Under the pieces are notes generated by a model that was given only the letters and a program-made list of their open reading frames with translations, ran no database searches and had not been told where the DNA came from. From IMG/VR virus record IMGVR_UViG_3300028585_000025, positions 1 to 62,787 of that record: a DNA stretch of 62,787 nt; one strand, given 5' to 3'. Source of the DNA: a virus. Its lineage: Duplodnaviria > Caudoviricetes. Shown here piece after piece: positions 3,698-18,012 of this stretch. Positions within the stretch are counted from its first letter, which is position 1; every line of letters starts with the position of its first letter. The position numbers and the translations under genes were made by a program.

Positions 3698-4717
3698 ATG
3701 AGCGATTATAAACCGTTAGCCCCAATCGCCAGTAACAAGGCAGGTAAAGACGCGTACACCGGTCAACCTACTATTGATTACATGGCGTTTGAAAAGAGTG
3801 GACTTGATGAGTTGCTGGCATTGTACCCAACGCATACTCTGTTCATTCGTAATCTGGATGCTGCACCGGATTACTATTCATTAATACCAATGGACGTGCT
3901 GGAAGCGAAAGAGTTTCCACTGGTATTATCTGTCATTGGCCCTGTTGATCGTGAGATGAAACATATCGTCTTAGAGGCAGCGGGGATTATTGAAATTCAA
4001 GCGCTTAGCGCACTTCTTAAGCAAAACGAGCAAGAAGCAAAACAGGGTAACTTTTTAATGACAACCGACAACACTAACGTGAATTACTTCGAACTGATTC
4101 GTGACTGGGGCAAGGCCCGTAACATCATCGGCGGTGGGTCTACGCCAATCGACCAGTTCATCAAAGGCATGACCGAAGCCTCTGAAGCATGGGGTAACAT
4201 CCTGGGTGGTCAAACTGATAAACTGAAAGATGACATCGGTGACACACTGGTTTGTCTGACACAGTCTTACGGCATCATCGATAGTACCAAGATCGAAGAA
4301 GCTGCTGCTGACCTGGGTCCATGGCTACAGAACGCCCGTGTCGAATATCAGAACCACGGCGAGTGGGCCGACAAACGTCTGGCGCTGTCTATCCTGCGTA
4401 AGCTTGGTAATATCTCTCTGGAGATTGAAGTGGCGCAGTTCGAACCTGATCACCACAGACCAAGCGAACTGCTGGATGATACCGCAGACCTGATCGCTGA
4501 TCTGGTTGTGCTGGCTGAATCCAAAGGCTGGACACTGCAGGAGTGCCTGGAAGAAGCCTACAACGACATCAAAGACCGTAAAGGCGTGATGTTTAATGGC
4601 GGGTTCGTTAAAGAAGCGAGCTTGACTGTTGATCGCGCGAAAGAGATGTTAGCATCCGGCGATGTCGGTGGTGTCGGTGCAGAATACCTGAACGGCTATA
4701 TCGCAGCTAATAGCTGA
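3698..4717 (+). CDS. MazG-like all-alpha NTP pyrophosphohydrolase with N-terminal extension
   Basis: IRDWGKARNI..QFIKGMTEASE..LKDDIGDTLV..LQECLEEAYNDIKDRKG.M.NG.FVKE is the phage MazG-like pattern. Confidence 0.75.
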   Translation: MSDYKPLAPIASNKAGKDAYTGQPTIDYMAFEKSGLDELLALYPTHTLFIRNLDAAPDYYSLIPMDVLEAKEFPLVLSVIGPVDREMKHIVLEAAGIIEIQALSALLKQNEQEAKQGNFLMTTDNTNVNYFELIRDWGKARNIIGGGSTPIDQFIKGMTEASEAWGNILGGQTDKLKDDIGDTLVCLTQSYGIIDSTKIEEAAADLGPWLQNARVEYQNHGEWADKRLALSILRKLGNISLEIEVAQFEPDHHRPSELLDDTADLIADLVVLAESKGWTLQECLEEAYNDIKDRKGVMFNGGFVKEASLTVDRAKEMLASGDVGGVGAEYLNGYIAANS

Positions 4718-5582: not shown

Positions 5583-6287
5583 ATGTCCGATACACCAAGA
5601 GTAGTTATTGCAGCGAAATCAACGAAGTTAGATATTCACTTTAATGGAACTGACGAGAGTCCGCAACGTAGTTTGCAGTTCTCACTCAGCAATGAGAATC
5701 TGCATTCAGTCGCCAGGCTATTATTTATGCGTCAGCTCGGGTTCAATGATATCCCGGAAACCAAAGCTGTAATTCCTTTCAAACACACGTGTAATGGCAC
5801 GGTGGTAGAAAGCAAATCTCCGTTCACGTGGTCGCTCAATGACGGCGTGATCAATTTTAACCTCGATAAGAACATCTTCGTTCATCATCAATGGGCATGT
5901 CATGCTGATCTGGTAGTACCTGTCCTTACCCATGAGTTAAACATCGGTATCCATTATGCATTTGCCGGCAGACTGAAAGACCATCCATCTGTCTTTGCGT
6001 ATAAGTACACGCATGTAAATCGGGATACCGAGATGGTTCTGTTGACCGATCGCAGATCGTTCTACGTAGTGCTCGCCAGCAGTGATCTAGCTGGCCATGG
6101 CTGGTATTCGATGTTCGGATACAACAAAGAGATGGTGCATCCTGATTGGAACGCCATGCGATCAAAAGAATTCCGTAGCGAGCAAGCCAAGTTATGCGAC
6201 AAATACGGATTTATGGTTAGACAATACATATCTGTTGATAACTTTATTACTGATGGAGTAATCGCAGACAGCATCGATAACCAGTAA
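5583..6287 (+). CDS. hypothetical protein
   Basis: AGGAG RBS; 234 aa. Confidence 0.7.
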   Translation: MSDTPRVVIAAKSTKLDIHFNGTDESPQRSLQFSLSNENLHSVARLLFMRQLGFNDIPETKAVIPFKHTCNGTVVESKSPFTWSLNDGVINFNLDKNIFVHHQWACHADLVVPVLTHELNIGIHYAFAGRLKDHPSVFAYKYTHVNRDTEMVLLTDRRSFYVVLASSDLAGHGWYSMFGYNKEMVHPDWNAMRSKEFRSEQAKLCDKYGFMVRQYISVDNFITDGVIADSIDNQ

Positions 6288-7534: not shown

Positions 7535-8323
7535 ATGACTCTGAAGAGCAACGAACAACTCAACGCAGAATCCCCTGAACTGCGCGATGTTATCGTGGTT
7601 GTCGATGGACTGAATGTCCTTGATCTCAACATTGCGCCTGGTGCACGCGCACCACGTTACAGTGTACAGTTATCCGGCGACATGGGCGTAACCCCCAACG
7701 GAATGCGGGCGGTATACGGACATGCAGCACAGGTACTGAATTACCTTATTGAAAAGGGTTTCTCAGCACATGCCAATGTATCGCGCGATGATCTGGATAA
7801 CGACATTGCTCACGCAACCTCGCTTATGAAGCAAGCGGTTGCGGCCCTGACCACCGCCGGCGAAGATATCTCGCTGCATTGTCACGCACTATCTATTTGG
7901 GTGACTACCTGTGATTTTAATCTGACTGAGATGCGTCTGCTCAGCGGCGAAGCAATGGATAAGGTAGAGTTCCTGCTGGAACAACCTGCCGAGCCATCTG
8001 ATGCGTTAACAGAGTTGATGACCCGTAAGCGTAAAAACCTGGTACGTGAAGACCTGGGTGAAACAACACCGGTAACGACATCGCTGGGCACCACCACGAC
8101 CATCATGATTGGTGATGAACTGCATGTGCGCCGTGAGTTTAACGATGAAGATGGTGAAGCGATCATTGTCTGGATTCCATCCGAACTGAACCAGGGTATC
8201 AACAACTGGAACGACGTGGATAAAGACAAGCTCAGTTTCCATGGCGGCGCATCAGAAGGTCATCCGACCTTTATCCTCAACCGTCATGCGGTCAAGGGTA
8301 ATGCTGATCAGTCGCCTGTTTAG
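7535..8323 (+). CDS. hypothetical protein
   Basis: AAGGA RBS; 262 aa. Confidence 0.7.
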   Translation: MTLKSNEQLNAESPELRDVIVVVDGLNVLDLNIAPGARAPRYSVQLSGDMGVTPNGMRAVYGHAAQVLNYLIEKGFSAHANVSRDDLDNDIAHATSLMKQAVAALTTAGEDISLHCHALSIWVTTCDFNLTEMRLLSGEAMDKVEFLLEQPAEPSDALTELMTRKRKNLVREDLGETTPVTTSLGTTTTIMIGDELHVRREFNDEDGEAIIVWIPSELNQGINNWNDVDKDKLSFHGGASEGHPTFILNRHAVKGNADQSPV

Positions 8324-8335
8324 TAAATAAGTAAT

Positions 8336-8411
8336 AGACAGCGTAATCATATGCGATAAGGGGGTCTGGTGAAAGCCATATCCCTTTACGGATTATGCTG
8401 TCTTTTTTTTT
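8336..8411 (+). terminator. long compound hairpin ending TTATGCTG + T-tract
   Basis: agacagcgtaatc pairs with gattatgctgtct; inner aaggggg/tcccttt stem; followed by a T run. Confidence 0.7.
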
Positions 8412-8495
8412 GGTTAAGAAATACTAGCTATCACCATTATATGTCATTTAGTTTTCACATTGTAAAACTTTCACACATTGCAGAAGAGATATCAC

Positions 8496-8639
8496 ATGTC
8501 ACAACCTGAAGAATTTGATCTGGACGGTCTGGAATCACTGGATCTGGAAGGCGCTGAGAAAGCAGCAGAAGAGAAAGGCGCAGGCGGCGGTGAAGCCCTG
8601 GGCGACGGCGAAGCGGATTGCGAAGGTTGCAAGATCTAA
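8496..8639 (+). CDS. 47-aa acidic peptide with C-terminal CxxC-K-I (RNR alpha C-terminal tail-like)
   Basis: own translation MSQPEEFDLDGLESLDLEGAEKAAEEKGAGGGEALGDGEADCEGCKI; GAAGAG upstream; biased codons; below ORF-track cutoff. Confidence 0.75.
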   Translation: MSQPEEFDLDGLESLDLEGAEKAAEEKGAGGGEALGDGEADCEGCKI

Positions 8640-8693
8640 AATGACGTGATGTGACCAGGGGTTGATAAGGGATCAACTAACCGAGGAAGCATC

Positions 8694-8993
8694 ATGAACA
8701 TTTATCTTGTCAAGCTTAAGTCCGAGCCTCGTTACACCCCAGACTCGTTCATTGCTGCAGCGACATCAACAGAGCAAGTTCTATCAATACATCCTGCTTA
8801 TTTTAAAGGTCGACATACTCGTGTCTGTTTTGATGCAGAGATGGCGAAACTTTGGGAATGTGAATCGTCTGATCGCACCATGGACCATCAATGGACAACA
8901 GATAGAAACAATCTTGAGGTTATTTATTTAGGTCAGGCTGCGATTGAGTTTACCGAACCTACAATCGTTGAGATGTGGTACGGTTACTGTTGA
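8694..8993 (+). CDS. hypothetical protein
   Basis: GAGGA RBS; 99 aa. Confidence 0.7.
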   Translation: MNIYLVKLKSEPRYTPDSFIAAATSTEQVLSIHPAYFKGRHTRVCFDAEMAKLWECESSDRTMDHQWTTDRNNLEVIYLGQAAIEFTEPTIVEMWYGYC

Positions 8994-9802: not shown

Positions 9803-9901
9803 ATGTTTGAGTTATTTATGGGTGGTAACGGAGGCTGTCGACTTATCTGGGGATCTGGTCTTACGTTCCCGGTAGCCAAGACTGTTGATATCACTACTTA
9901 A
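9803..9901 (+). pseudogene. 32-aa remnant of an M(L/F)E(M/L)(L/F)MG-start gene family
   Basis: MFELFMGGNGG...; start and ataggc RBS resemble MLEMLMG of 10560. Confidence 0.4.
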
Positions 9902-9965
9902 CGTTTATGTAAATAAGGAAATACTTGTATTCTTATATGGACTATTCCCTAATGAGACAATTGCC

Positions 9966-10544
9966 ATGGCAAAACTTACTTTTTATTATGCTTCAATGAA
10001 TGCTGGTAAATCGACAGCATGTATTCAGGCAGGCTATAACTACATTGAGCGCGGTATGCATGCGCTGATGATCAAACCTGAGATCGATAACCGTGATGAC
10101 AAAAACAAAGTCAGTTCACGTGTGGGCCTATCAGCTAAAGCCATAGTGTTTGATACCGAGGCTAATCTGTACGAGTTAGTCTTGTTGCAAATGAAGTCCA
10201 GCAAAGTCTCCGTTGTACTGGTTGACGAAGCGCAATTCCTCACCAAAGAACAGGTCACTGAACTTAGCGATATCGCTGATTTCAATGACGTGCCAGTTGT
10301 GTGCTACGGACTGCGTACTGACTTCCAGGGCGAGCTCTTCCCAGGTTCGGCGGCATTGATGGCACGTGCTGATCGTCTTAATGAACTGATTGGTGTCTGC
10401 CACTGCGGTTCAAAAGCCCACTTCGTTCTGCGTCGTGATGAGAAAGGTCACGTTGTAAAAGAAGGCGAACAAATTCTCATCGGCGGGAATGATCGTTACG
10501 AAGCTGTCTGTCGTAAACATCACCGCCATGCAATGATCAGTTAA
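9966..10544 (+). CDS. tdk: thymidine kinase
   Basis: MNAGKST P-loop, LVDEAQF, YGLRTDF, C-H-C...YEAVCRKH Zn site; start at ATG 9966. Confidence 0.95.
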   Translation: MAKLTFYYASMNAGKSTACIQAGYNYIERGMHALMIKPEIDNRDDKNKVSSRVGLSAKAIVFDTEANLYELVLLQMKSSKVSVVLVDEAQFLTKEQVTELSDIADFNDVPVVCYGLRTDFQGELFPGSAALMARADRLNELIGVCHCGSKAHFVLRRDEKGHVVKEGEQILIGGNDRYEAVCRKHHRHAMIS

Positions 10545-15752: not shown

Positions 15753-16370
15753 ATGAACATTATTAACAGTATTATCGAACTGGGTGCAGATAACCAACCT
15801 TGCAAACTGGCCATCAATCACGATCAAGAAACCGGTGTATCAACAGTTAAGTTGAGCTATCTGGAATCTGATATTGTTGATATCAGCTGGGGTGCCAAGC
15901 AGCGCAAAGACACCAAGTTCCGTTTAGGTGCAACTGCTCATGGATTAACGCAACTCTATCTGCATATCCATCACAACCTGATCAAAACTGACAGTGAGTT
16001 TGTGCGTGATTACTTTGCCTGGAAACGTGAAGAGATCCTGGAGAACATCAAAGCACTTGGCATTATCTACAATGGCGATGAGTGGTGGGATAAACTTAAG
16101 CAATCCTTCTTCCGTCTGGCCATTAGTGAACAGCAGTCAGAAACGTTAAAAGTAGTGATGGTCCTGACCAGTGACGTTAAAGAACACAAAGCGGTCTACA
16201 CCATCAGTACTGATTTCAAACTGGCTGACAAAGCAAGCAATGGTCGGACACAATTACTGGGTGGCAATACCCGTGTGGTTAGTCGATACAGCCTGGCCGA
16301 ATCACCCGAATCAATTGATTCTATTCTGGCGAAGTACACCCCTGAACATGTTACAGCAGCCGCTGTTTAA
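15753..16370 (+). CDS. hypothetical protein
   Basis: 205-aa ORF with RBS. Confidence 0.7.
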   Translation: MNIINSIIELGADNQPCKLAINHDQETGVSTVKLSYLESDIVDISWGAKQRKDTKFRLGATAHGLTQLYLHIHHNLIKTDSEFVRDYFAWKREEILENIKALGIIYNGDEWWDKLKQSFFRLAISEQQSETLKVVMVLTSDVKEHKAVYTISTDFKLADKASNGRTQLLGGNTRVVSRYSLAESPESIDSILAKYTPEHVTAAAV

Positions 16371-16383
16371 AAAGGAAAGTAAG

Positions 16384-18012
16384 ATGAGCAAGCAGATTCA
16401 AGATATGGTCTTTGAAATCAAATTCGAAGACTCAGTGACTGGTGTCGACTACCGGATGTTGACTCTGGTCAATGACGAAGGGCATCTCATTGTTGAACAT
16501 CCCGTTGCGATCAACACGGTTAACTACCTGCTGTCACTTGACACTGATGAGCGTAACAAGGCGTGTGCGGCGTACTTGGCCATCGCGTTTAATTATACCC
16601 GTGACTACCCCGAAGGTACCGGTGCCGCTACTGCCGAGTATGCGCGTTCTGCCTGGGTCTGTCTGGAACAATATGTAGTTGAATCGGGGCTGGGTGAATT
16701 CACCGATGAAGACTTCGCTAATCTCACGGTTATCGATTTCTACGAAGGTCGTGCAGTGGCGTCAATCACCAGTCCTAACGGTTCTGAGGTGGTGATTACT
16801 CTGCGTCGTCAGAATGGCCAGCTGTGGACCGAGCATGTTCGTCACTTTACTGATGAAGATACCATCCCGACTATCCAGGAATTATTCCAGGAATGGGAAG
16901 ATGCGGCGAACTCTCGACTGCAGATCGAACCGGCCGCGGTCATGAGTTTTGGCGATGTTAACTTCGTCTATGCGGTTGATACATCTGAAGCAGCACGTGT
17001 GCGTCGTGAAGCACTCCTGCAGATCACTATCGGTGATCGCCTGATTGTTGAGCAACGTATCTTTGAAGGCAGTAAGCCAATTCTGTACTTCATCCTGGAA
17101 GTCTTCAACATGCTGGCATTGCGTTTTCGTATTGGAAGCGTTGCGTCGGTTAATGAAGAAGATCGTGTCACTATCCTGAATGCGGTTGTCGGTTTAATCG
17201 GCGGGCATTTGGGCATGAGCGAACATGTCCAGATCGAAGCGGGTATGGTGTATGCACACGAAGGCAGTATCGACGATCACGTGACCTACGCAATCACCCA
17301 TGAACTCACGGCAGATAATCTCATCAAGGCAACGTATCGTTTCATGCGTATGGTAGATGACACTATGCGTCGTAGCATCGAGATGGTTGATCAGGTGGAA
17401 TACCTGGAATACCCGATGACACCACTGGAGTTCTACAATGCGTTCCAGGTTGATATCTCGCGTGAACTCGGTGTGGCGCGTCGTTTTGACATTGCGATGA
17501 TTGCAGCAATTGATAATGCCAGTGGTCTGGGTAAAGACAACGAACTGTTGTTCCGTATCAAAGAGGATATGATGTACTTTAAACAGAGTACGCTGCATTC
17601 TCCGGTGATCATGGGTCGCAAGACGTATGATTCGCTACCTAACCCGTTGGTTGATCGTCTGAACATCGTGATCACTTCTCAGCCAATCAAAGACCATACC
17701 ACCAAATCAGGTGTGGTGTTTGTTAACAGCAAAGAAGAGGCACTGTCTAAAGCGGTGAATTACTTAACCGAAAATGGCGGCGACAAGATCTGGATTATTG
17801 GTGGCGCGCAGATCTATGCAATGTTCCTGCCGGATGCAGCAGAGTTGCACCTGACCGTTATCCATGCTGAACGTGAAGATGCAGATACCTTCTTCCCTGA
17901 ATTCAATCACAATGCCTGGGATGCAGAAGTGTTGTTTGACGAACCTCAACTCACTTCACGTGAAGGTGAGGATATCTCTTACAACCGCTTCATCATGCGT
18001 CGTAAAGCATAA
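16384..18012 (+). CDS. folA: dihydrofolate reductase with large N-terminal unknown domain
   Basis: C-terminal IAMIAA..GLGKDNEL..EDM.YFK..T...VIMGRKTYDSL..PL.DRLNIVIT..IWIIGGAQIY..ADTFFP; start ATG 16384 after AAGGA. Confidence 0.9.
   Translation: MSKQIQDMVFEIKFEDSVTGVDYRMLTLVNDEGHLIVEHPVAINTVNYLLSLDTDERNKACAAYLAIAFNYTRDYPEGTGAATAEYARSAWVCLEQYVVESGLGEFTDEDFANLTVIDFYEGRAVASITSPNGSEVVITLRRQNGQLWTEHVRHFTDEDTIPTIQELFQEWEDAANSRLQIEPAAVMSFGDVNFVYAVDTSEAARVRREALLQITIGDRLIVEQRIFEGSKPILYFILEVFNMLALRFRIGSVASVNEEDRVTILNAVVGLIGGHLGMSEHVQIEAGMVYAHEGSIDDHVTYAITHELTADNLIKATYRFMRMVDDTMRRSIEMVDQVEYLEYPMTPLEFYNAFQVDISRELGVARRFDIAMIAAIDNASGLGKDNELLFRIKEDMMYFKQSTLHSPVIMGRKTYDSLPNPLVDRLNIVITSQPIKDHTTKSGVVFVNSKEEALSKAVNYLTENGGDKIWIIGGAQIYAMFLPDAAELHLTVIHAEREDADTFFPEFNHNAWDAEVLFDEPQLTSREGEDISYNRFIMRRKA

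What the first reader, a model, noticed from the sequence alone, without database searches (positions are those of the whole stretch)
8496..8639. Free-standing mimic of the ribonucleotide reductase alpha C-terminal redox tail
Seen: an unannotated 47-aa ORF after a strong terminator, encoding an acidic, Gly-rich, probably disordered peptide that ends ..GDGEADCEGCKI. Known: class Ia RNR alpha subunits end in a flexible acidic tail whose cysteine pair shuttles electrons from thioredoxin/glutaredoxin to the active site (E. coli NrdA ends DDGCESGACKI; many others end CxxC-x-x). No nrdA is present in this window, but thymidine kinase, a MazG-like gene and DHFR are nearby. Inference: the phage supplies the swinging arm in trans to speed re-reduction of host or phage RNR, or uses it as a thioredoxin/glutaredoxin decoy. 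It also contains GLE, a possible prohead-protease site. This is my best candidate for an undescribed system here.
Basis: partly seen in the sequence, partly recalled or inferred. Interest (0 to 1): 0.85.

Follow-up and report, generated by a model that had tools for sequence, protein, structure and literature searches.

The report
Orphan ribonucleotide-reductase redox tail in phages
A small conserved jumbo-phage peptide ends in the same cysteine-pair tail that ribonucleotide reductase uses to recharge itself, and similar free or grafted tails occur on many phage proteins, pointing to an undescribed way phages tap the host's DNA-precursor and thiol-redox machinery.

Summary
The 47-aa ORF at 8496-8639 is real, conserved and under purifying selection. 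It is PHROG 10239 and is annotated as a hypothetical protein in Erwinia jumbo phages.

Its ending, CEGCKI, matches the C-terminus of a true phage NrdA (coliphage RB16). Close relatives end in CESGACKI, and their last 10 residues equal those of Erwinia NrdA.

Pattern scans of viral contigs found this tail on 67 non-NrdA phage proteins. These are small acidic peptides, PF13876 proteins (including phage N4 gp48) and several proteins with no known family. In 201 bacterial genomes the motif occurs at most once per genome, and 29 of 30 checked sites are NrdA.

None of 65 phage genomes carrying an orphan tail encodes NrdA. Eight of 56 encode NrdB alone.

All five orphan-tail genomes that encode a glutaredoxin or thioredoxin place it within 0-460 bp of the tail gene. 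In three of them the gap is 2-3 nt.

Best reading: a redoxin-coupled dithiol arm supplied in trans, most likely to host class Ia RNR. Whether it boosts or inhibits the enzyme, and what its target is, remain unproven. No literature on this was found. It is new and worth bench tests.

The parts
8336..8412 (+). Long hairpin (8336-8403) plus T run (8404-8412): an intrinsic terminator that closes the upstream gene 7535-8323 and isolates the peptide gene.
   Evidence: dG -35.7, z -5.8. The sequence is conserved in 5 of 6 aligned relatives. The simple terminator scan missed it.
8436..8450 (+). Conserved upstream motif ATTATATGTCATTTA, about 46-60 nt before the ATG. It is a candidate phage promoter. 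This is inference only.
   Evidence: Conserved in 5 of 6 aligned relatives. It is unique in the window: 4 matches at <=3 mismatches against 6.2 expected, and only this one is exact. No sigma-70-like site was found here.
8496..8582 (+). Codons 1-29 of the peptide: the acidic, hydrophobic 'handle' (EEFDLDGLESLDLE followed by an AEKAAEEK helix).
   Evidence: the [FL]-D-x-D-x-[LF] motif and the A-E-x-[KR] helix recur across 30 aligned peptides. AF2 helices at 9-14 and 17-29.
8583..8639 (+). Codons 30-47 plus the stop: a disordered Gly/acidic arm ending DCEGCKI. Cys42 is at 8619-8621, Cys45 at 8628-8630, and the stop at 8637-8639. This is the NrdA-type dithiol tail.
   Evidence: C42, E43, C45, K46 and I47 are invariant in 30 of 30 aligned peptides. 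The ending is identical to that of RB16 NrdA. pLDDT is about 50.
8694..8993 (+). Downstream 99-aa ORF (phrog_11706), same strand, 55 nt after the peptide stop. It may be co-transcribed. Function unknown.
   Evidence: No Pfam match. Only close homologues found. The AF2 model is poor, pLDDT 49.6.
9885..10544 (+). Thymidine kinase. This is nucleotide-metabolism context.
   Evidence: PF00265, E 1.1e-50.
16171..18012 (+). 613-aa ORF with a DHFR domain at residues 441-585. This is nucleotide-metabolism context.
   Evidence: PF00186, E 2.8e-40.

Best explanation
The ORF is a genuine phage gene for a two-part peptide. A short helical acidic 'handle' (residues ~7-29) carries a disordered acidic arm that ends in the dithiol motif of the class Ia RNR alpha C-terminal tail (C-E-G-C-K-I-COOH).

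It belongs to a phage-restricted set of 'orphan RNR-alpha tails'. These are either free-standing or grafted onto unrelated domains, and they occur in phages that have no nrdA of their own.

Most likely mechanism (inferred, not shown):
1. The Cys pair is reduced by a thioredoxin-fold redoxin. In this phage that would be host thioredoxin or glutaredoxin. In some relatives it would be a phage glutaredoxin encoded next to the peptide.
2. The reduced arm then acts in trans on host NrdA, entering the site that NrdA's own tail visits to re-reduce the active-site disulfide.
3. Together with the phage's orphan NrdB, this would sustain or raise dNTP synthesis by the host catalytic subunit.

Shown: the motif identity, its specificity to NrdA in bacteria, its distribution, and its gene context.
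Inferred: translation, redox cycling, NrdA as the client, and the direction of the effect.
For: (1) Motif identity.
- CEGCKI-stop ends a true 750-aa NrdA of coliphage RB16 and a second NrdA fragment.
- Homologous peptides end CESGACKI, CEGGACKI or CEGGGCKI, the same variants as true NrdAs.
- The peptide of Erwinia phage pEa_SNUABM_2 shares its last 10 residues with all 4 Erwinia NrdAs retrieved.
- 65 of 80 Enterobacterales/Vibrionaceae NrdAs end CESGACKI.

(2) Specificity.
- In 201 genomes of the Erwinia order, 54 have exactly one match, none has two, and the reversed-pattern control gives 0.
- 29 of 30 loci checked are NrdA ends.
- In viral contigs, 27 of 31 CX2C hits and 40 of 61 CX4C hits are non-NrdA proteins.

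(3) Redoxin context.
- All 5 orphan-tail genomes with a Grx/Trx hit place it 0-460 bp from the tail gene. These 5 are out of 25 CX2C genomes; 0 of 40 CX4C genomes have such a hit.
- Three are Grx-then-peptide pairs with 2-3 nt gaps.
- One 90-kb phage has the order dCTP-deaminase-like, tail protein, 82-aa ORF, thioredoxin.

(4) RNR context.
- 0 of 65 orphan-tail genomes have PF02867.
- 8 of 56 have NrdB alone.
- The Agricanvirus NrdB is 74-77% identical to enterobacterial NrdB and keeps a host-like C-terminal tail. It was detected by MS in lysate (passage in PMC6690015).

(5) Real gene.
- dN/dS 0.09-0.42; PHROG 10239.

(6) Weak structural support.
- Co-folding with E. coli NrdA residues 1-737 scored 0.50 against a best control of 0.01.
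- The pass mark was reached by 58 of 80 solved complexes and 2 of 110 mismatched pairs. At 0.60 or under it was reached by only 7 of those 80 solved complexes, and by both mismatches that passed.
- The runs agree in >=71% of contacts; partner pLDDT >=58. The tool's verdict is 'weak support'.
Against: - There is no evidence of translation. The lysate proteomics main text has 0 occurrences of gp108 or gp112.
- There is no experimental link to NrdA, thioredoxin or glutaredoxin.
- This window's lineage has no phage redoxin: 0 of 5 for thioredoxin and no glutaredoxin. The operon evidence is therefore borrowed from homologues that are 45-48% identical.
- Its tail is CX2C, while the presumed host tail is CX4C.
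- Similarity upstream of the Cys pair is not significant for this lineage (p=0.18). Overall 18 of 57 orphans reach p<0.05, and those sequences are related to one another.
- 48 of 56 tail-bearing genomes have no NrdB. An RNR link must therefore run through host NrdA alone.
- The nrdA exclusivity is statistically soft. Only about 9% of phage records have an NrdA-like match (4762 of 50,697), and the 65 genomes fall into few lineages.
- NrdA's own tail is tethered at high local concentration. A free peptide would need docking or high abundance to compete or help (reasoning).
- A tail grafted on PF13876 proteins and other unrelated domains suggests the tail may deliver or tag cargo rather than simply shuttle electrons.
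Confidence: 0.45

Rival explanations
1. Decoy or inhibitor. The orphan tail competes with NrdA's own tail. It either soaks up reduced thioredoxin/glutaredoxin or plugs the NrdA active site. This would throttle host RNR or redirect host thiol-redox flux.
For: The motif identity and specificity evidence is the same as for the best explanation. In 40 of 40 CX4C genomes the phage encodes no redoxin, so the host-type tail would meet host redoxins. Grafting onto unrelated domains fits a targeting or blocking tag. The co-fold score with NrdA is weak: 0.50 against a best control of 0.01, verdict 'weak support'.
Against: Eight of 56 genomes add a seemingly intact NrdB with a host-like tail, which argues for using host NrdA rather than blocking it. 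A glutaredoxin-peptide operon is odd for a decoy of host redoxins. These phages lack their own RNR catalytic subunit and carry salvage and folate genes such as TK and DHFR, which suggests dNTP demand.
Confidence: 0.2
2. Redoxin-coupled arm for another client. The tail recruits thioredoxin or glutaredoxin, or carries electrons, to a phage or host target other than RNR. Alternatively it tethers its cargo domain to a redoxin.
For: Redoxin adjacency in 5 of 5 genomes that have a redoxin. The tail sits on diverse cargo: PF13876 proteins, 61-360-aa proteins with no family, and a conserved helical handle. 48 of 56 genomes have no RNR gene at all.
Against: The tail copies NrdA down to the decapeptide of the host enzyme. 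In bacteria no other thioredoxin or glutaredoxin substrate carries it. Orphan tails are never found together with phage nrdA.
Confidence: 0.17
3. Not redox. The C-terminal Cys pair binds a metal or serves another role (a stability or degradation signal), and the likeness to NrdA is convergent.
For: The similarity is short, 6-10 residues. The linker test is not significant for this lineage. There is no match to any solved structure or Pfam family.
Against: The same CX2C/CX4C variants occur in parallel in NrdAs and in orphans. The motif is NrdA-specific in 201 bacterial genomes. Redoxin genes lie adjacent.
Confidence: 0.08
4. Evolutionary leftover: the 3' end of a lost phage nrdA, or an untranslated ORF with no present function.
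For: The phage keeps nrdB next to an HNH endonuclease gene but has no nrdA. Homing endonucleases are known to disrupt nrd genes; this comes from the title of a reference listed, and that paper was not read.
Against: dN/dS is 0.09-0.42. The gene has its own start codon and a conserved upstream region. The N-terminal handle is conserved and is not NrdA-like. The tail is present in many lineages and fused contexts. The gene lies about 8.5 kb from nrdB, on the side opposite to where nrdA sits in bacteria.
Confidence: 0.04
5. Precursor of a processed peptide: either a RiPP-like leader plus core, or a prohead-protease substrate packed in the virion.
For: The [FL]-[DN]-L-D motif and the GG(G)E stretch loosely recall lantibiotic or double-glycine leaders (that resemblance is recalled, not tested). 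There are several small-residue-x-Glu sites.
Against: No modifying enzyme or transporter family is found next door: neighbours have no Pfam hits, or only PHROGs of unknown function. Ser/Thr is not conserved in the would-be core, and GGGE is lost in distant homologues. The lysate proteomics main text has 0 occurrences of gp108 or gp112.
Confidence: 0.03

Closest known systems
C-terminal redox tail of class Ia RNR alpha (E. coli / Erwinia NrdA, ...DDGCESGACKI)
   Same: Both have an acidic, disordered stretch ending in a Cys pair followed by K-I at the very C-terminus. Homologous phage peptides match the last 10 residues exactly. The known role is a disordered tail with a double-Cys motif that re-reduces the active site (passages in PMC9669993).
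   Different: The peptide is not attached to any RNR barrel. This window's copy has CX2C spacing rather than the host's CX4C. It carries an N-terminal helical handle that is absent from NrdA.
NrdA of T4-like coliphage RB16 (ends ...EEEAEDSCEGCKI) with phage glutaredoxins
   Same: The terminal hexapeptide CEGCKI is identical. RB16 also encodes two glutaredoxin-family proteins, so a phage redoxin plus a CX2C tail is a natural pair.
   Different: In RB16 the tail is in cis on a 750-aa enzyme. Here it is a separate 47-aa gene in a phage without nrdA.
Phage N4 gp48 (GenBank EF056009.1 numbering) and other PF13876 'Phage_gp49_66' proteins
   Same: They carry the same kind of grafted tail (...DDNCEGGGCKI...DDCEGCKI) after a short acidic, hydrophobic linker, in phages without rnr (the statement that N4 has no rnr is a passage in PMC2784036).
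   Different: The cargo is an 82-position folded domain of unknown function, not the helical handle. The PF13876 protein of Cba120, a relative of NrdA-encoding Ackermannviridae, has no such tail. I did not search Cba120 itself for nrdA.
Split or in-trans RNR parts: the homing-endonuclease-split nrdA of phage Aeh1, and yeast R1 tails acting across the dimer with Sml1 competing (recalled; only a reference title on Aeh1 mobE was seen)
   Same: These are precedents for RNR pieces encoded or acting separately, and for proteins that compete with the alpha tail.
   Different: No catalytic partner is encoded by this phage. The peptide would have to work on, or against, the host enzyme. None of these precedents was tested here.
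NrdB C-terminal peptide, which binds NrdA
   Same: It is acidic and hydrophobic (the phage and E. coli NrdB tails end ...DFDDFQL and ...DDLSNFQL) and loosely resembles the peptide's FDLD..L handle.
   Different: In the peptide the motif is N-terminal or internal, not at a free C-terminus. The resemblance is by eye only and was not tested.

Membership tests
Class Ia RNR alpha C-terminal redox tail | Cys pair (C-x2-C or C-x4-C) followed by K-I at the extreme C-terminus | tested here: met
   C42, E43, C45, K46 and I47 are invariant in 30 of 30 aligned peptides.
Class Ia RNR alpha C-terminal redox tail | Preceded by an acidic, flexible linker | tested here: met
   Sequence. pLDDT is about 50 over the last 18 residues. 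The order-sensitive likeness to NrdA linkers is not significant for this lineage, p=0.18.
Class Ia RNR alpha C-terminal redox tail | Covalently attached to the RNR alpha catalytic barrel (PF02867) | tested here: not met
   No Pfam domain in the peptide. No PF02867 in the window or in 65 related or tail-bearing genomes. No longer homologue found.
Class Ia RNR alpha C-terminal redox tail | Reduced by thioredoxin, glutaredoxin or NrdH-type redoxins | not testable with these tools
   Context only: the redoxin gene lies 0-460 bp away in 5 of 5 orphan-tail genomes that encode one.
Class Ia RNR alpha C-terminal redox tail | Delivers electrons to the NrdA active-site cysteines | tested here: inconclusive
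   Co-fold with E. coli NrdA 1-737 scored 0.50 against a best control of 0.01. The verdict was 'weak support' and no interface was reported.
PHROG 10239 (phage protein family of unknown function) | Full-length profile match | tested here: met
   E 6.5e-26, residues 1-47 against profile positions 1-47 of 47.
RiPP precursor (lantibiotic or double-glycine type) | Adjacent modification enzyme or transporter, and conserved modifiable core residues | tested here: not met
   Neighbours have no Pfam match, or only PHROGs of unknown function. Ser/Thr in the core is not conserved, and GGGE is lost in distant homologues.
Prohead-protease substrate / virion internal peptide | Presence in virions and cleavage at conserved sites | not tested
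   The lysate MS paper's main text has 0 occurrences of gp108 or gp112, and supplements are closed. The GLE site varies: G11 and E13 are not invariant.
Glutaredoxin / thioredoxin | Thioredoxin fold with an active-site CxxC after beta-1 | tested here: not met
   No Pfam match. The model has two helices plus a disordered tail.

The most novel reading that the evidence does not exclude
Phages that lack an RNR catalytic subunit carry a portable 'RNR-alpha tail' module that lets them take over the host enzyme. The free peptide, or a cargo protein bearing the tail, docks on host NrdA. It serves as a phage-controlled electron entry point, fed by host redoxins or by a co-encoded phage glutaredoxin. 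In some lineages it is teamed with a phage NrdB. Together these would form an RNR takeover kit made only of accessory parts. The same tail on other domains (N4 gp48 and others) would target those cargos to NrdA or its redoxins.
Probability: 0.35. Interest if true: 0.9.

Novelty: new variant of a known kind. Interest (0 to 1): 0.8.

Why it matters
RNR sets the rate of DNA-precursor supply, and re-reduction through the alpha tail is part of its catalytic cycle.

A phage-encoded tail working in trans would be a new type of auxiliary metabolic factor. It would be a detached piece of an enzyme's moving part rather than an enzyme. It would also explain why some phages carry nrdB and/or a glutaredoxin without nrdA.

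The finding gives a testable function to PHROG 10239, to the tail of model phage N4 gp48, and to dozens of 'hypothetical' small acidic proteins. It also offers natural peptides as probes or modulators of class Ia RNR and of thioredoxin/glutaredoxin specificity.

If the tails turn out to be inhibitory decoys, they would be a new class of phage-made RNR or redoxin antagonists.

Tried and rejected
Searches that gave nothing:
- Pfam, NCBIfam and PDB sequence searches of the peptide.
- tblastn of the peptide against the phage collection found nothing, probably because of the low-complexity filter.
- The 'longer proteins' search scored none of 97 candidates.
- Rfam on 8200-8700 gave only a sub-threshold hit (13.7 bits against a gathering score of 39).
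- The upstream motif is not a repeated promoter consensus in the window.
- The ESM Atlas gave only unnamed clusters scoring under 0.9.

Side quest on the downstream 99-aa ORF as a possible hidden redoxin:
- Only close homologues were found.
- The model's pLDDT was 49.6, so no fold search was made.

A wrong lead that I corrected: I first took the N4 tail protein to be gp49 and Tad2-like. The GenBank record and Pfam show that the tail protein is gp48 (PF13876) and that the neighbouring gene, gp49, is the Tad2-like one.

Literature:
- 'CEGCKI': 0 papers.
- RNR + C-terminal tail + phage + mimic + thioredoxin: 3 papers, all on general RNR phylogeny by title and abstract. I read passages of one.
- 'NrdB, phage, lacks NrdA': 0 papers.
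- Phage_gp49_66: 1 genome note.
- gp49 + N4-like: 9 papers, none on this by title.
- The jumbo-phage comparative paper has no glutaredoxin or NrdA passage.
- Supplements are closed. The proteomics tables of PMC6690015 and the RAY localisation data may bear on expression.

Limits of the census:
- The nrdA exclusivity is given little weight, because of the low base rate and shared ancestry.
- NrdD (PF13597) was searched only in 2 relatives.
- Fragments L011, L013, L027, L028 and L041 were not searched for nrdA.
- Nine fragmentary CX4C contigs (L051, L055, L057, L062, L069, L070, L088, L101, L105) were left out of the NrdB search because of the 50-locus limit.
Full report
**What is there.**
- Positions 8496-8639 (+) hold an ATG-to-TAA ORF of 47 codons. 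It reads MSQPEEFDLDGLESLDLEGAEKAAEEKGAGGGEALGDGEADCEGCKI.
- Upstream there is a long hairpin at 8336-8403 followed by a T run (dG -35.7 kcal/mol, z -5.8). A sequence block conserved among relatives follows.
- The window is a 23%-complete fragment of a jumbo phage about 80% identical in DNA to the Erwinia Agricanvirus group: Deimos-Minion, Ea35-70, RAY and AH06.
- In those genomes the same 144-nt gene is annotated as a hypothetical protein. It matches PHROG 10239 over its full length (E 6.5e-26).
- Ten homologues of 45-48 aa exist in the large protein collection.
- Pairwise dN/dS is 0.09-0.42 in 10 of 10 pairs.
- An AlphaFold2 model on 30 aligned homologues gives two short helices (9-14, 17-29) and a low-confidence C-terminal third.
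Translation itself is not shown.

**The tail is an RNR alpha tail.**
- E. coli NrdA ends ...QDDGCESGACKI.
- I scanned 2.9 million viral contigs for DNA encoding C-E-G-C-K-I-stop and got 31 stretches:
  - 2 are true NrdA ends. One is the 750-aa NrdA of coliphage RB16.
  - 2 look like chance.
  - 27 are non-NrdA proteins.
- A second scan for C-E-x-G-x-C-K-I-stop gave 61 stretches: 15 NrdA ends, 6 chance-like and 40 non-NrdA proteins.
- The non-NrdA proteins fall into four groups:
  - (a) small acidic peptides of 40-63 aa that align with the window peptide (30-row alignment);
  - (b) longer proteins ending in that same module (85-208 aa);
  - (c) PF13876 'Phage_gp49_66' proteins with a roughly 20-residue linker plus tail;
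  - (d) 61-360-aa proteins with no known family.
- Group (c) includes the protein labelled gp48 in the phage N4 GenBank record.
- Orphan tails use the same variants as true NrdAs: CEGCKI, CESGACKI, CEGGACKI and CEGGGCKI.
- The spacing switches within one close family. P0011 is 72% identical to the window peptide overall but ends CEGGGCKI.
- In 80 nrdA-nrdB loci of Enterobacterales and Vibrionaceae, 65 NrdAs end CESGACKI. All 4 Erwinia entries do. One Photobacterium NrdA has a CX2C tail, and one locus was mis-parsed.
- The peptide of Erwinia phage pEa_SNUABM_2 ends DADGCESGACKI, so its last ten residues equal the Erwinia NrdA end.

**Specificity control.**
- In 201 bacterial genomes of the order around an Erwinia genome, the CX4C pattern hits 54 genomes exactly once. 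No genome has two hits, and the reversed pattern hits none.
- 29 of the 30 loci I inspected are NrdA C-termini.
- In cells the motif therefore belongs to NrdA. Tails detached from NrdA turned up only in viral contigs in these scans.
- The likeness upstream of the Cys pair is weaker. Against a position matrix of 60 NrdA linkers, 18 of 57 orphans beat 95% of their own shuffles. The window's lineage does not (p=0.18), and the orphans are related to one another.

**Genomic correlates.**
- None of the genomes carrying an orphan tail has the RNR alpha barrel PF02867:
  - 0 of 2 and 0 of 5 Agricanvirus-like genomes;
  - 0 of 25 in the CX2C set. The single positive of 26 is RB16, whose tail sits on NrdA. 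These 25 include the seven genomes above;
  - 0 of 40 in the CX4C set.
  - In all 0 of 65 distinct genomes, of which 46 virus records are >=90% complete and 2 are complete GenBank genomes.
- I weight this lightly. Only 4762 of 50,697 phage records have an NrdA-like match, and the 65 genomes represent few lineages.
- NrdB occurs without NrdA in 4 of 7 Agricanvirus-like genomes and in 4 of 49 others.
  - The Agricanvirus NrdB is 74-77% identical to enterobacterial NrdB.
  - It ends in a host-like tail.
  - It was detected by MS in a Deimos-Minion lysate (passage in PMC6690015).
- The strongest context signal concerns redoxins.
  - Glutaredoxin or thioredoxin hits occur in 5 of the 25 CX2C genomes and in 0 of 40 CX4C genomes.
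  - In all 5, the redoxin gene lies 0-460 bp from the tail gene (coordinates).
  - Three are glutaredoxin-then-peptide pairs separated by 2-3 nt.
  - One has the peptide followed about 450 nt later by a glutaredoxin.
  - One 90-kb phage has the order dCTP-deaminase-like, tail protein, 82-aa ORF, thioredoxin.
  - These five genomes represent two independent lineages. They are also the same four jumbo genomes that carry NrdB without NrdA, plus the 90-kb phage.
- The window's own lineage has no phage redoxin, so it would have to use host thioredoxin or glutaredoxin.

**Mechanism.**
- The most economical reading of the data is as follows.
  - The peptide is a detached version of that arm.
  - It is charged by a thioredoxin-fold redoxin.
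  - It acts in trans on the host catalytic subunit.
  - The helical handle provides docking.
- A co-fold of the peptide with E. coli NrdA lacking its own tail gave only weak support.
  - The score was 0.50 against a best control of 0.01.
  - The pass mark was reached by 58 of 80 solved complexes and 2 of 110 mismatched pairs. At 0.60 or under it was reached by only 7 of those 80 solved complexes, and by both mismatches that passed.
  - The runs agree in >=71% of contacts and partner pLDDT is >=58. No interface was reported.
- The direction of the effect is open.
  - The presence of intact NrdB, glutaredoxin, thymidine kinase and DHFR argues for support of dNTP synthesis.
  - A tail that meets host redoxins or plugs NrdA could equally be a decoy.
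  - The tail's presence on unrelated cargo domains hints at a targeting role.

**Comparison and novelty.**
- The peptide works like, and copies, an NrdA tail. It fails the defining feature of attachment to an RNR barrel, so it is not an NrdA.
- It is a member of PHROG 10239, a family of unknown function.
- I found no paper describing free or grafted RNR tails in phages. The library is incomplete and supplements were closed.
- I rate it a new variant of a known kind: the RNR re-reduction pathway with its arm encoded apart. It has a bolder reading as a host-RNR takeover kit.

**Limits.**
- There is no expression evidence.
- There is no biochemistry.
- The operon evidence is borrowed from homologues 45-48% identical to this peptide.

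Noticed in passing
L090:1088-1459 (phage N4; EF056009.1 33632-34003): The model phage N4 protein labelled gp48 (PF13876) ends ...DDNCEGGGCKI, an NrdA-type tail. The next gene, gp49, carries a Tad2-like anti-Thoeris domain (PF11195).
   Followed up: partly
L005:12006-13142 (Deimos-Minion gp94); L014, L015; G009, G010, G015, G016: Orphan nrdB without nrdA occurs in Agricanvirus-like phages, beside an HNH endonuclease gene, and in a second jumbo lineage. In G009 and G015 the NrdB match is split into two ORFs (profile positions 7-190 and 189-281) about 0.3-1 kb apart, which suggests an insertion.
   Followed up: partly
window 8336-8412: The terminator hairpin is unusually long (about 68 nt). Its sequence, loop included, is nearly identical in 5 relatives, although the flanking DNA is only about 80% identical. 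The only Rfam hit is sub-threshold. It could be more than a terminator.
   Followed up: partly
L029:6598-7934: A 90-kb phage has a compact cluster: a dCTP-deaminase-like gene, a 71-aa protein ending DDDDCEGCKI (start overlapping the previous stop), an 82-aa ORF, and a thioredoxin with a CQPC site.
   Followed up: partly
window 16171-18012: The DHFR domain occupies only residues 441-585 of a 613-aa ORF. The 440-residue N-terminal part has no Pfam match.
   Followed up: no
window 3698-4717 and 5583-6287: These ORFs are syntenic with genes annotated as MazG / NTP pyrophosphohydrolase in AH06 and Deimos-Minion, but they gave no Pfam match at E<=0.001.
   Followed up: no
L175 (Photobacterium obscurum nrdA end): This is a bacterial NrdA with a CX2C tail (...DDCTSCKI), so CX2C spacing is not confined to phage NrdAs.
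   Followed up: no
L019:5791-6417; L044:3323-3763; L048:2750-3244; L070:3661-4743; L062:1052-1843: In other jumbo phages, proteins of 146-360 aa with no known family end in the same handle-plus-tail module. In those phages the module is fused rather than free.
   Followed up: partly
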